Both the position numbers and the translations under genes were made by a program. From IMG/VR virus record IMGVR_UViG_2713896908_000007: 64,000 bases of DNA. One strand, 5' to 3'. Positions 5,270 through 6,758 of this stretch are shown here, in pieces. The notes under the pieces are model-generated. The model searched no databases and was not told the DNA's origin. It worked only from the letters and a program-made list of their open reading frames with translations. This stretch comes from a virus (Duplodnaviria; Heunggongvirae; Uroviricota; Caudoviricetes). How positions within the stretch are numbered: the stretch's first letter is position 1; each line of letters starts with the position of its first letter.

Positions 5270-5531
5270 TGGTTATCCCTCAATAAAAGTGACATATTTA
5301 TTAGATTGCGGTGCCGGGTGCCTCCCGGTGACGTTAACCAGTTAACAATTAACGCCGGAATGTTTAATCATCAAGGAGGATTGTTTTAACTGTTCCGCGT
5401 GCGCTTAGCCGAATTCACCGCAATGGTAAGAGCACTTGGCTGGCTGGGCGGCGATGACGCCTGTACGCATTTGGTGATCCGGTTCTGCTTCCGGCATTCG
5501 CTTAATTAGCCAAATACTCTTAACGTTGCGC

Positions 5532-5618
5532 TGGTGGAGAGTAATGGAATCGAACCATCATCGCTTGCGCAATGGGACGGTTTTCAAGACCGCTTGAGCG
5601 CCATACTCCCTACTCTCC
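5532..5618 (-). tRNA. tRNA-Ser (anticodon UGA), type II with long variable arm
   Basis: 87 nt; anticodon loop CTTGAAA; variable arm ATTGC-GCAA-GCGAT hairpin; T-loop TTCGATT; encoded CCA. Confidence 0.7.
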
Positions 5619-5859
5619 AATGATTGTGGTGGTCGGTGCTGATCTCCGACTGCGCCTCTTTTTTTCATAGCCCATAAGGCCGGTCAGTGCGCTTGATGAC
5701 TGAGGCATCGATATTTACTACGCCGCCTCGTTGCCATAGGGCGGACTTGCGCGCCAGCAACGCGCATTCACCACAACGGAAAGAGCATTCACGTCTCGCA
5801 TCGCGGGAAAAAGCCCACGGTAGAGAGTCGAACTCTACAAATGCTCTTACCTGTTGTGC

Positions 5860-5992
5860 TGGTGCCGGTTAACGGATTCGAACCGCTGACCTCTGGCCTA
5901 ACATCGAATCGTTGTCATTTGACCAGCAAGGCTGTCTACCGAAGTAGAAACGATGCTTTGGCTCTCGTGCTCTCCCACTGAGCTAAACCGGC
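5860..5992 (-). tRNA. atypical 133-nt tRNA-like gene: tRNA 5' and 3' portions separated by about 57 nt of inserted sequence
   Basis: 5' GCCGGTT-TA-GCTC-AGTGGGA-GAGC (acceptor and D arm); 3' AGCGG-TTCGAAT-CCGTT-AACCGGC-A-CCA; acceptor halves pair; no canonical anticodon arm found. Confidence 0.35.
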
Positions 5993-5994
5993 AT

Positions 5995-6070
5995 TGGCGA
6001 TGGTGGGTGGATTCGAACCACCGACCAGTTAGTTAACAGCCAACTGCTCTAACCGCTGAGCTACACCATC
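5995..6070 (-). tRNA. tRNA-Asn (anticodon GUU)
   Basis: 76-nt cloverleaf GATGGTG...CTGTTAA...GGTTCGAATCC...CACCATC-G-CCA. Confidence 0.85.
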
Positions 6071-6730
6071 ACTTGCCGGGTACGTCTCCGGCGAGGGCTT
6101 CCACCTCCGTATGCTTTTCGGCGCACCGCGCCCTGGCTGCAATTCGGTAACAGGGGATGCATAACCCTGGCTTCCAGCGTGATTAGCGCTTTCAGCATGA
6201 CGGGATATACCCGTAAATTCGTGGAACTGTACCCAAAGTGCTGTTAAGCACCGCTGTTACGCTGAAAAGAAGACGCAACAGGAAAGGACGCTGACCAACA
6301 GATGGCCCCTTCTCGTTCATCTGGTTAATCACACCAGCGCCCTTACCTGTTGTGCCTCCCCGTTCCCTAATACACAGACGGGGACACTCTGCGGTCGATT
6401 TTTTGACGGGGGACGACTCATACCCCGTGGCGTCTGGCTTCTTAGGCCGCAGCCATCATCAGATCATCGTTTGCATTTACTTTAATGGTCAGTTTCTAAA
6501 CCGCCGCAAAGTCGCTAACCATGACGAAAACCCTGAAAAAACGCCCACCCGAAGATGGGCAAACAGGATGTAAGCTCGTTACGCATTTCGGTATTGCCAC
6601 TTAGGCGTATGGTCAACCTGGCAACTCGGCGTCATGAGGGGGAAGGAGTCACTACCCCGCCATACTTGCCGCCGCGCCTGTCGCGGCTAACAGCTAAATC
6701 GCTCTATAAATCACGATTCATTGAAACCAT

Positions 6731-6758
6731 ATTACACTAATAAATTTATTAGAGCAAT
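6731..6758. promoter_or_regulatory. pair of overlapping, inverted P1 C1-repressor-type operators
   Basis: AAATTTATTAGAGCAAT (17/17 to the remembered consensus ATTGCTCTAATAAATTT, reverse orientation) overlapping ATTACACTAATAAATTT (15/17). Confidence 0.6.

What the first reader, a model, noticed from the sequence alone, without database searches (positions are those of the whole stretch)
5860..5992. 133-nt tRNA-like gene with about 57 nt of internal insertion, in tandem with tRNA-Asn
Three nt downstream of tRNA-Asn lies a sequence with a canonical acceptor 5' strand and D arm (GCCGGTT-TA-GCTC-AGTGGGA-GAGC) and, about 57 nt further on, a canonical T arm, complementary acceptor 3' strand and CCA. 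The intervening segment contains a perfect TCTAC-TTCG-GTAGA tetraloop hairpin and a long-range GCATCG/CGATGT pairing, but I could not fold a standard anticodon arm. It could be an intron-containing or permuted tRNA, a structured insertion into a tRNA-Thr-like gene, or a decayed gene.
Basis: seen in the sequence. Interest (0 to 1): 0.55.

Follow-up and report, generated by a model that had tools for sequence, protein, structure and literature searches.

The report
tRNA-shaped phage RNA with knob
In the slot where phage P1 has an ordinary threonine tRNA, this P1-like plasmid carries a conserved tRNA-shaped RNA whose anticodon arm is replaced by a long arm ending in an invariant three-hairpin knob. 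It is a member of an apparently undescribed family found in tRNA gene arrays of unrelated phages, and its function is unknown.

Summary
On the minus strand, window 5992→5860 is a 133-nt gene two bases after tRNA-Asn. It has an intact acceptor stem, D arm, variable loop, T arm and ACCA. P1, P7 and D6 carry a normal 76-nt tRNA-Thr(UGU) in the same slot; here only the 17-nt anticodon arm is replaced, by 75 nt.

It is not decay. The same module sits in tRNA-like bodies in P1-like and SSU5-like phage-plasmids, E. coli phage Jgk1 and environmental phage contigs (15 distinct sequences, 8 lineages), always in tRNA arrays on the tRNA strand. Acceptor, T and module-closing stems covary. The three hairpin stems and junction strands barely change, while two hairpin loops vary freely.

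It is not an intron-containing or permuted tRNA. No single excision restores an anticodon arm in 14 of 15 members, and ARAGORN and Rfam give no tRNA, intron, tmRNA or ribozyme call. RefSeq labels it "tRNA-OTHER".

Best reading: a non-decoding RNA co-transcribed with tRNAs from the C1-repressed ban operon. The tRNA body likely serves for processing and stability, and the knob likely binds a host factor. The partner and function are unknown, and I found no description in the literature I could search.

The parts
5860..5992 (-). Whole 133-nt tRNA-shaped gene. Element position p maps to window coordinate 5993-p.
   Evidence: Family model R1 gives 155 bits over exactly 5860-5992. RefSeq 'tRNA-OTHER' has the same bounds on E. 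coli plasmids.
5986..5992 (-). Acceptor stem, 5' strand GCCGGUU; pairs with 5864-5870.
   Evidence: 6 of 7 pairs show changes on both sides across the family.
5969..5983 (-). D arm GCUC-AGUGGGA-GAGC (G18 G19 present).
   Evidence: Read from the sequence. Aligns to the D arm of P1 tRNA-Thr. Stem is 95% paired in the family.
5957..5968 (-). Position 26 plus the 5' strand of the connector helix: A CGAGA GCC AAA. GCC pairs with GGC at 5896-5898; purine-rich internal loops lie on either side.
   Evidence: GCC/GGC flips to GGC/GCC or GGG/CCC in L015 and L028.
5951..5956 (-). Stem Pc, 5' strand GCAUCG; closes the knob and pairs with 5901-5906.
   Evidence: The second pair occurs as CG (8), GC (5), AU (1) and UA (1). 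100% of cells are paired.
5935..5948 (-). Hairpin H1: UCUAC-UUCG-GUAGA.
   Evidence: Stem invariant in all 15 sequences. No variant was found when H1 was left free in an IMG/VR scan.
5924..5934 (-). Hairpin H2: CAGC-CUU-GCUG.
   Evidence: Stem invariant; the loop varies in sequence and length, 3-4 nt. No variant stem was found when H2 was left free.
5914..5923 (-). Hairpin H3: GUC-AAAU-GAC.
   Evidence: Stem invariant; loop is AAAU, AAU, AAAC or AUA. No variant stem was found when H3 was left free.
5907..5913 (-). Conserved junction strand AACGAUU. It can alternatively pair with AUCGUU at 5949-5954.
   Evidence: 5 of 7 columns are invariant among lineage representatives. The alternative pairing is read from the sequence; L025 G83A weakly argues against it.
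5901..5906 (-). Stem Pc, 3' strand CGAUGU.
   Evidence: Covaries with 5951-5956.
5893..5900 (-). 3' strand of the connector: UA GGC CAG.
5888..5892 (-). Variable loop AGGUC.
   Evidence: Kept in 14 of 15 members. G15 and C48, which could form the Levitt pair, are read from the sequence.
5871..5887 (-). T arm AGCGG-UUCGAAU-CCGUU.
   Evidence: 3 of 5 stem pairs change on both sides. The GGUUC...CC bases of the arm are invariant across the family.
5860..5870 (-). Acceptor 3' strand AACCGGC, discriminator A, CCA.
   Evidence: N-C-C is encoded after the stem in all 15 members; the last base is A, C or U.
5995..6070 (-). tRNA-Asn(GUU), the upstream neighbour in the same transcript; 2-nt spacer.
   Evidence: ARAGORN; Rfam tRNA 71.7 bits.
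6731..6758 (-). C1 repressor operator Obanab overlapping promoter P1ban, the likely transcription start region for the tRNA block.
   Evidence: The 28-nt P1 operator sequence is found exactly. The P1 record annotates it as controlling ban.

Best explanation
This is a functional, non-decoding tRNA-like RNA gene, and one member of a conserved phage family.

How I think it works:
1. It is transcribed with tRNA-Asn and the other small RNAs of the C1-repressed ban operon, so mainly when the prophage is induced.
2. The intact tRNA body (acceptor stem, D arm, variable loop, T arm, encoded NCC(A)) folds into the L shape. It is cut out of the precursor by RNase P and the 3' trimming and CCA enzymes, giving a stable ~133-nt species.
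3. Where the anticodon arm should be there is an arm about twice as long. It has two internal loops and ends in a compact four-way junction of three short hairpins.
4. That knob is the working part. It presents helices and junction strands that are fixed in sequence, which I take to be the binding surface for a widely conserved bacterial macromolecule or ligand.
5. The RNA cannot read codons.
6. The module probably spreads between phage tRNA genes by short-patch recombination, using the near-universal D-arm and T-arm sequences as homology arms.

Shown here: the gene is real, is under selection as an RNA on this strand, has a tRNA body, lacks an anticodon arm, lies in the ban operon, and replaces tRNA-Thr as an allele.
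Inferred: processing by tRNA enzymes, stability, that the knob binds a host factor, and the recombination route.
Unknown: the partner and the benefit to the phage.
For: - Allelic replacement: P1, P7 and D6 carry a 76-nt tRNA-Thr(UGU) at the same place with the same acceptor, D and T arms. P1 homology breaks only between 5969 and 5893.
- Family: the same module in tRNA-like bodies occurs in 11 of 678 plasmids that match the scaffold, in 6 of 5,426 complete E. coli genomes where it is annotated tRNA-OTHER, in phage Jgk1, in IMG/VR contigs and in metagenome contigs. This gives 15 distinct sequences.
- Context: in every locus that also carries ARAGORN-called tRNAs (all except the 1.9-kb contig L028) it lies on the strand of those tRNAs.
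- Selection on RNA structure: acceptor 6 of 7, T stem 3 of 5, and stem Pc with four pair types; 96.7% of cells paired; 0 of 500 shuffles reach the observed values. RNAalifold finds the same fold. G-U pairs in Pc, the T stem and the acceptor stem fit only this strand.
- The related phages Jgk1 and L020 differ at 3 of 7 acceptor pairs, all compensated.
- Sequence constraint on the knob: 0 of 24 hairpin-stem columns vary, against 13 of 14 acceptor columns and 4 of 4 H2-loop columns. Scans that left each hairpin free in turn found no other versions.
- No linked protein gene is shared across lineages. P1-like copies sit in different downstream contexts. The partner, if any, is therefore probably host-encoded.
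- Operator Obanab/P1ban is exact, about 740 nt upstream.
- The element contains no credible ORF.
Against: - There are no expression or processing data for this RNA.
- The invariance of the knob is partly produced by how members were found: exact-match patterns needing 19 or more fixed bases. More divergent members could exist and would soften the picture.
- Only about 8 independent lineages are known.
- Nothing identifies the partner. A ligand-binding, catalytic or ribosome-directed role fits the same data.
- The discriminator base and first base pair vary, so neither aminoacylation nor its absence can be inferred.
- A terminator-like hairpin lies between the promoter and the tRNAs (6542-6565). 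Read-through is assumed because P1 has the same layout.
Confidence: 0.55

Rival explanations
1. The knob is itself an active RNA: a small-molecule aptamer or a small self-cleaving or otherwise catalytic motif, carried on a tRNA chassis, rather than a passive protein-binding site.
For: The conservation pattern is typical of riboswitch aptamers and small ribozymes: short helices and junction strands fixed in sequence, capping loops free to vary. Two mutually exclusive pairings are possible for AUCG, with either CGAU copy (read from the sequence). The junction is compact, with zero-length linkers between hairpins.
Against: There is no match to any Rfam ribozyme or riboswitch, even with permissive settings on the module alone. 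No hammerhead, twister, pistol or hairpin-ribozyme core is visible by eye. No cis-regulated gene is involved.
Confidence: 0.15
2. It is a precursor tRNA with a new kind of small intron. A phage or host enzyme removes the module and yields a working tRNA (Thr or other).
For: It occupies the tRNA-Thr slot. No tRNA-Thr was found in the held sequence of any carrier. The highest-scoring ordinary tRNAs against the family model are tRNA-Thr genes of P7, P1, D6 and T4. Relaxed ARAGORN can force a 54-nt 'intron'.
Against: The anticodon stem itself is missing. For every possible single splice position, 14 of 15 members give no arm with at least 4 of 5 pairs, U33 and R37. The forced ARAGORN model has a stem with 2 of 5 positions unpaired, and its anticodon is not conserved between members. 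The module is too small for group I and gives no Rfam intron hit. It has no bulge-helix-bulge, and bacteria lack that endonuclease (established knowledge).
Confidence: 0.06
3. It is an RNA anti-CRISPR or decoy. H1 with its 5' flank (GUUUCUAC-UUCG-GUAGAC) mimics the Cas12a (type V-A) crRNA handle AAUUUCUAC-UGUU-GUAGAU and sequesters the nuclease, with the tRNA body supplying abundance.
For: 13 of 19 handle positions match, including the whole 5-bp stem and the UU before it (my recollection of the Cas12a repeat; the repeat is confirmed in the RacrVA1 entry). Repeat-mimicking RNAs against V-A systems exist in phages (PMC10651486).
Against: Published Racrs are near-identical copies of the full host repeat (36 of 36 for RacrVA1). 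Here positions -1, -18 and -19, which I recall as important for the handle pseudoknot, differ. As far as I know, E. coli, Salmonella and E. albertii do not carry type V-A systems. H2, H3 and the junction are equally conserved, which this idea does not explain. The sequence is absent from the held part of the Racr supplement.
Confidence: 0.04
4. It is a dead tRNA-Thr gene disrupted by a selfish or accidental DNA insertion. The conservation reflects recent spread, or a DNA-level role of the three palindromes, such as protein binding sites.
For: The hairpin stems show no compensatory changes, as expected for DNA palindromes or for very recent transfer. The element is rare.
Against: The flanking tRNA stems have diverged extensively with full compensation, which requires long-term selection on the RNA. 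G-U pairs are strand-specific. The H2 and H3 loops have had time to diverge in sequence and length. The module is never found outside a tRNA-like body: every other pattern hit was a chance match in apparently coding DNA. The insertion is a precise arm-for-arm replacement.
Confidence: 0.05
5. It is an aminoacylated tRNA mimic that acts on the ribosome or on a tRNA-dependent enzyme, in the manner of tmRNA.
For: It has a complete acceptor/T minihelix, and N-C-C(A) is encoded in all members. The L-shape tertiary signature is kept (G18 G19, AGGUC variable loop).
Against: No conserved identity element is present: the discriminator is A, G, U or C, the 1-72 pair is G-C or A/C, and there is no G3-U70. 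ARAGORN makes no tmRNA call. The only short reading frame overlaps stem positions that covary for pairing. Complementarity to 16S, 23S and 5S rRNA does not exceed shuffled controls.
Confidence: 0.1

Closest known systems
Phage T4 stable RNAs species 1 and 2 (rnaC, rnaD)
   Same: They are small stable RNAs of unknown function encoded inside a phage tRNA gene cluster on the tRNA strand. rnaC is 139 nt and has a canonical T arm (CCGGG-UUCGAAU-CCCGG), paired termini and a large structured insert.
   Different: There is no sequence or module similarity: BLAST and model R1 hit only T4 tRNAs, not rnaC or rnaD. I saw no recognisable D arm or encoded CCA in the rnaC sequence. rnaC is not known as a family spanning unrelated phages.
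Engineered 'tRNA scaffold' for recombinant RNA expression (Ponchon and Dardel; discussed in PMC3753655)
   Same: The design is the same: the anticodon stem-loop of a tRNA is replaced by a structured RNA of interest. The tRNA body then provides processing and protection from nucleases in E. coli.
   Different: That scaffold is man-made. The RNA here is natural, conserved and under selection. Whether the body works the same way here is an inference.
YrlA / bacterial Y RNAs (Rfam RF02553; PMC4201824)
   Same: These are non-decoding RNAs that combine a tRNA-like domain (T arm and D arm) with a protein-binding module; some are phage-encoded.
   Different: The topology is opposite. In YrlA the RNA ends lie on the 'anticodon' side and the acceptor-like stem is closed by a loop. 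The Rfam score here is 21.4 bits against a threshold of 69, and that match spans the neighbouring tRNA-Asn. No Ro/Rsr binding helix is present.
tmRNA
   Same: A tRNA-like acceptor/T domain is joined to a large non-tRNA insert.
   Different: tmRNA lacks a normal D arm, carries G3-U70 and encodes a tag ORF. None of these applies here.
Functional RNAs carried inside tRNA genes: the archaeal tRNA-Trp intron box C/D RNA, metazoan tricRNAs (PMC4536317), and gammaherpesvirus tRNA-miRNA units
   Same: A tRNA gene serves as the vehicle for expression and processing of a second functional RNA.
   Different: Those cargo RNAs are released by splicing or tRNase Z and leave a normal tRNA, or lie downstream of it. 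Here no tRNA can be regenerated.
RNA anti-CRISPRs (Racr) against type V-A (PMC10651486)
   Same: They are short phage RNAs that mimic a CRISPR repeat hairpin. H1 resembles the Cas12a handle stem.
   Different: The match is only partial, the known hosts have no V-A system (my knowledge), and the rest of the knob is left unexplained.

Membership tests
Canonical elongator tRNA (Rfam RF00005) | 7-bp acceptor stem, discriminator base, 3' CCA | tested here: met
   GCCGGUU/AACCGGC-A-CCA. 6 of 7 pairs covary in the family.
Canonical elongator tRNA (Rfam RF00005) | D arm with G18 G19 and T arm with the GUUCRANYC loop | tested here: met
Canonical elongator tRNA (Rfam RF00005) | 5-bp anticodon stem with a 7-nt loop (U33, anticodon, R37) | tested here: not met
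   75 nt of other structure lies in its place. ARAGORN makes no call, the Rfam tRNA model gives no hit even at E<=10, and no arm can be reconstructed.
Canonical elongator tRNA (Rfam RF00005) | Length about 70-95 nt | tested here: not met
   131-135 nt in all members.
Group I intron-containing bacterial or phage tRNA | Intron of about 200 nt or more with a P1-P9 core, inserted in the anticodon loop so that the exons restore the arm | tested here: not met
   The module is 75 nt. No Rfam intron hit. The exons do not restore an arm.
Archaeal-type (bulge-helix-bulge) tRNA intron | Two 3-nt bulges on opposite strands separated by a 4-bp helix at the exon-intron borders | tested here: not met
   The connector has two-sided internal loops (4x2 and 3x2 or 2x1) around a 3-4-bp helix (inspection).
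Permuted or split tRNA | The 3' half is encoded upstream of the 5' half, or the halves are on separate transcripts | tested here: not met
   The halves are collinear, and the ends pair as a normal acceptor stem.
tmRNA | tRNA-like domain with G3-U70 and no D stem, plus a tag reading frame and pseudoknots | tested here: not met
   ARAGORN makes no tmRNA call. The 3-70 pair is C-G or U-A. Rfam tmRNA hits lie elsewhere and are weak.
YrlA / Y RNA (RF02553) | Score at or above the gathering threshold; Ro-binding terminal helix; closed acceptor-like hairpin | tested here: not met
   21.4 bits against 69, and the match straddles tRNA-Asn. The topology is opposite.
RNA anti-CRISPR (repeat mimic) | Near-identity to the CRISPR repeat of a system present in the host | tested here: inconclusive
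   13 of 19 matches to the Cas12a handle (from memory). Not in the held Racr tables. Host CRISPR content cannot be checked with these tools.
Stable tRNA-like RNAs of phage tRNA clusters (T4 rnaC type; an informal class) | Encoded in a phage tRNA array on the tRNA strand, with T arm and paired termini, and non-decoding | tested here: met
   There is no homology to rnaC, so the match is of kind, not of family.
Pseudogene (decayed tRNA) | No selection for structure; sporadic and lineage-specific | tested here: not met
   Compensatory changes and conservation across 8 lineages.

The most novel reading that the evidence does not exclude
The family is a new class of phage RNA effector. A natural 'tRNA chassis' delivers an invariant three-hairpin junction that captures or inhibits a broadly conserved bacterial factor, for example a tRNA-directed defence nuclease or another tRNA-handling enzyme. 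The module moves between phage tRNA genes by recombination through the universal D- and T-arm sequences. tRNA arrays would then be counter-defence islands that hold not only spare tRNAs but also tRNA-shaped inhibitors.
Probability: 0.3. Interest if true: 0.85.

Novelty: new variant of a known kind. Interest (0 to 1): 0.68.

Why it matters
Phage tRNA arrays are now seen as tools against tRNA-cleaving host defences as well as for codon supply. A conserved, non-decoding, tRNA-shaped RNA in the same arrays, with a payload that is almost frozen in sequence from E. coli phage-plasmids to environmental jumbo-phage-sized contigs, points to an unrecognised RNA-based function during infection.

It is also a natural counterpart of the engineered tRNA scaffold.

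Because it occurs in P1-like and SSU5-like plasmids of E. coli, E. albertii and Salmonella, it can be tested directly with standard genetics. It may also shed light on the T4 species 1 and 2 RNAs, whose function the T4 record still lists only as 'small, stable RNA'.

Practically, annotation pipelines either miss it or label it 'tRNA-OTHER'. A dedicated covariance model would correct that.

Tried and rejected
1. ARAGORN with intron options, at default and lowered thresholds. Only a forced, poorly paired 'Ser(cga)+54-nt intron' model appeared.
2. ARAGORN on every deletion product. It was too permissive to be informative: it accepts almost any arm when the body is strong, and the anticodons are inconsistent between members. 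I replaced it with a strict single-intron test.
3. Rfam at gathering and permissive thresholds, on the region and on the module alone. Nothing relevant was found.
4. Complementarity of the module to E. coli 16S, 23S and 5S rRNA. The longest match is 9 nt, within the shuffled range.
5. The minimum-free-energy fold pairs the module's 3' part with the T arm. This pairing is not kept in Jgk1, so I rejected it as a conserved alternative.
6. Kink-turn, bulge-helix-bulge, T-box-like UGGN/NCCA pairing and a tmRNA-like tag frame, all checked by inspection. None fits or covaries.
7. A search for a co-inherited protein in the flanks of all lineages. Only a Gp49-like protein is shared, by three lineages (Jgk1, L020/L024 and one SSU5-like locus).
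8. Two scans of GTDB representative genomes. The result was zero hits and one chance hit in a coding region.
9. Pattern hits L019, L027, L036 and L037-L050 are chance matches in apparently coding DNA.
10. Ten literature searches, including exact motif strings, and three papers read. No description of this RNA was found. The library is incomplete, so this is not proof of novelty.

Full report
WHAT IS THERE

The window is a P1-like phage-plasmid. It carries the C4 antisense RNA and its targets. Its tRNA region aligns with P1, P7 and D6. The element itself is 100% identical to copies on Escherichia albertii plasmids.

The feature lies on the minus strand, 5992→5860. It reads:

GCCGGUU UA GCUC AGUGGGA GAGC A | CGAGA GCC AAA GCAUCG UU [UCUAC UUCG GUAGA] [CAGC CUU GCUG] [GUC AAAU GAC] AACGAUU CGAUGU UA GGC CAG | AGGUC AGCGG UUCGAAU CCGUU AACCGGC A CCA

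It starts two bases after tRNA-Asn (5995-6070).

COMPARISON WITH P1

- P1, P7 and D6 have an ordinary 76-nt tRNA-Thr(UGU) in the same position, with the same 2-nt spacer.
- Homology to P1 (about 93%) runs from 8007 down to 5969, which is the end of the D stem. It resumes at 5893.
- So the 17-nt anticodon stem-loop of tRNA-Thr has been exchanged for 75 nt, and everything else in the tRNA is retained.
- The exact C1 operator Obanab with promoter P1ban lies at 6731-6758 on the same strand (P1 annotation). The RNA therefore belongs to the C1-repressed ban operon.
- No credible ORF covers the region.

HOW THE STANDARD TOOLS SEE IT

- ARAGORN does not call it, with or without intron options. Only at a lowered threshold does it force a poorly paired model with a 54-nt 'intron'.
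- The Rfam tRNA model and all other Rfam families are silent, including when the module alone is searched with permissive filters.
- RefSeq/PGAP annotates exactly the same 133-nt interval as 'tRNA-OTHER' on six complete E. coli plasmids.

IT IS A FAMILY

BLAST and pattern scans recovered the module in several settings:
- P1-like elements (window, L009-L011, L013).
- SSU5-like phage-plasmids of E. coli and Salmonella (L005-L008, L012, L014, L025, L026).
- The 74-kb E. coli phage Jgk1 (L004).
- Environmental contigs of 1.9 to 866 kb, some of jumbo-phage size (L015-L018, L020-L024, L028-L032).

This gives 15 distinct sequences in about 8 lineages.

- In every case the module sits inside a tRNA-like body.
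- In every locus that also carries ARAGORN-called tRNAs (all but the 1.9-kb contig L028), it is in or next to the tRNA array and on the tRNA strand.
- It is rare: 11 of 678 plasmids that match the scaffold, 6 of 5,426 complete E. coli genomes, and 1 of 50,697 phage records.
- It was never found outside a tRNA-like body. All other pattern hits were chance matches in apparently coding DNA.

STRUCTURE AND SELECTION

My hand-drawn structure and the RNAalifold consensus agree. The structure consists of:
- a cloverleaf body;
- a connector helix (GCC/GGC) flanked by purine-rich internal loops;
- a 6-bp closing stem, Pc;
- three hairpins, H1 to H3, joined without linkers;
- junction strands UU and AACGAUU.

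Support for the structure:
- Across the family 96.7% of cells are paired, and 13 pairs change on both sides. 0 of 500 shuffles reach the observed paired fraction, number of double-changed pairs or covariation score.
- The acceptor stem covaries at 6 of 7 pairs and the T stem at 3 of 5. The second pair of Pc occurs as CG, GC, AU and UA.
- G-U pairs show that the constraint acts on the RNA of this strand.
- The related phages Jgk1 and L020 differ at 3 of 7 acceptor pairs, all compensated.

The knob behaves differently from the body:
- Among eight lineage representatives, 0 of 24 hairpin-stem columns vary and the UU junction is fixed.
- By comparison, 13 of 14 acceptor columns, 4 of 4 H2-loop columns and 3 of 4 H3-loop columns vary.
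- The search patterns themselves fixed parts of the knob, so I left each hairpin free in turn in separate IMG/VR scans. No alternative versions appeared.
- The caveat remains that each scan still needed about 20 exact bases elsewhere in the module.

A covariance model of the family scores members at 108-161 bits and ordinary tRNAs at 59 bits or less. The best-scoring ordinary tRNAs are the tRNA-Thr genes of P7, P1, D6 and T4.

WHAT IT IS NOT

- Not a decayed gene, given the selection evidence above.
- Not a permuted tRNA: the halves are collinear.
- Not an intron-containing tRNA. I tested every possible single splice position and both variable-loop lengths. In 14 of 15 members no product has an anticodon arm with at least 4 of 5 pairs, U33 and R37. 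The module is too small for a group I intron, and its borders are not a bulge-helix-bulge.
- Not tmRNA: no G3-U70, no ARAGORN call, and the only short frame overlaps covarying stem positions.
- Not YrlA: 21 bits against a threshold of 69, with the opposite topology.
- Its complementarity to rRNA does not exceed chance.

MOST LIKELY MECHANISM

The RNA is co-transcribed with tRNA-Asn and the other small RNAs when C1 repression is lifted. The tRNA body is preserved in full, including G18 G19, the AGGUC variable loop and an encoded N-C-C(A) in all members. This argues that the body must be recognised as a tRNA, most simply by RNase P and the 3'-end machinery. The body would then act like the engineered 'tRNA scaffold' and give a stable, abundant RNA.

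The knob is read in a sequence-specific way: helices and junction are fixed while loops are free. It is therefore the functional payload.

Three observations suggest that any partner is host-encoded and widely conserved in bacteria:
- no protein gene travels with the module;
- P1-like copies sit in different downstream contexts;
- the carriers range from E. coli, E. albertii and Salmonella plasmids and an E. coli phage to uncultured environmental contigs whose hosts are unknown.

The arm-for-arm exchange in a body otherwise identical to the resident tRNA-Thr suggests short-patch recombination through the near-universal D-arm and T-arm sequences. This last point is an inference.

I put about 0.55 on this overall reading. 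Within it, 'real structured RNA gene under selection' is about 0.9, and 'binds a host macromolecule' is only about 0.4. The alternatives are: an aptamer or ribozyme knob (0.15), an aminoacylated mimic acting on the ribosome or on enzymes (0.10), a new kind of intron (0.06), a dead gene or DNA-level element (0.05), and a Cas12a-handle mimic (0.04).

THE CAS12a LEAD

H1 with its flank (GUUUCUAC-UUCG-GUAGAC) matches 13 of 19 positions of the type V-A crRNA handle. Repeat-mimicking RNA anti-CRISPRs against V-A systems exist (PMC10651486). Several points count against the idea:
- published Racrs copy the whole repeat;
- three handle positions that I recall as important differ;
- the known hosts lack V-A systems, to my knowledge;
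- the idea leaves H2, H3 and the junction unexplained.

I keep it only as a cheap experiment.

COMPARISON WITH KNOWN RNAs

- The closest in kind are the T4 species 1 and 2 RNAs, stable RNAs in the T4 tRNA cluster. rnaC has a T arm and paired termini around a large insert. There is no homology to the present family.
- In design, the closest is the artificial tRNA scaffold.
- YrlA, tmRNA and tRNA-embedded cargo RNAs share the principle of a tRNA-like part joined to another module. They differ in topology, processing or defining features; see the membership table.
- I found no description of this family in ten full-text searches, including exact motif strings, or in a catalogue paper of phage structured RNAs. 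The library is incomplete.

VERDICT

The element is a member of a conserved and apparently undescribed family of tRNA-shaped, non-decoding phage RNAs with an invariant three-hairpin payload. Its function is open, but it can be tested directly in E. coli.

Noticed in passing
window 5755-5859 (- strand): Directly after the element lies a 105-nt structured unit (MFE -39.5 kcal/mol, z = -3.2). A long closing stem (CACAACAGGUAAGAGCA / UGCUCUUUCCGUUGUG) encloses three hairpins, the first of them T-arm-like (GUAGAG-UUCGACU-CUCUAC). P1 and D6 have a different insert inside the same kind of stem.
   Followed up: partly
window 5843-5859 and 6339-6355: A 17-nt direct repeat, GC(T/C)CTTACCTGTTGTGC, brackets the tRNA-Asn + tRNA-like block. 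On the RNA strand, each copy begins a long hairpin (CACAACAGGUAAGRGC...). Inverted copies lie at 5425-5438 and 5778-5789. These may be processing stems or module boundaries of the ban-operon leader.
   Followed up: no
window 5532-5618 (- strand): ARAGORN calls an 87-nt tRNA-Ser(UGA) with a weak D arm. The Rfam tRNA model does not reach threshold, and the best Rfam hit is tRNA-Sec at 37.7 bits (below 47). The gene is absent from P1, present in D6 (annotated 'AA not called by tRNAscan-SE'), and present but unannotated in P7.
   Followed up: partly
L021 1779-2001 (also L023 5212-5434, L022 1846-2068, L017 677-899): In environmental jumbo-phage-sized contigs, just upstream of the family member, lies a ~223-nt 'double tRNA-like' unit. 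An outer acceptor half, D arm and T arm enclose an inner T arm, closed helix and D arm in the YrlA-like order. A further acceptor+T-arm RNA follows at L021 2003-2085.
   Followed up: partly
window 5307-5422 (- strand): Rfam STnc100 (Gammaproteobacterial sRNA) matches at 50.3 bits, just above its threshold of 47, downstream of the tRNA block.
   Followed up: no
window 30330-30536 (- strand): C4 antisense RNA (70 bits) and its a1/b1 target element (55.5 bits), the P1 immI immunity region. This confirms that the window is P1-like.
   Followed up: no
window 6442-6546 (- strand): A weak Rfam 'permuted tmRNA' match (21 bits, E = 0.07). It lies near the stretch that corresponds by position to the region the P1 record calls 'dicF-like', and a terminator-like hairpin sits at 6542-6565. 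Probably a chance match.
   Followed up: no
L034 38604 onward; L020 1780 onward: In phage Jgk1 and the related 70-kb environmental phage, a protein I take from memory to be Gp49-like (motif ...LLTFCVLVLENGFTVTGESACASPENF...) lies about 600 nt downstream of the element on the same strand. A homologue lies 3.6 kb away in one SSU5-like locus. It was not found in the other lineages.
   Followed up: partly
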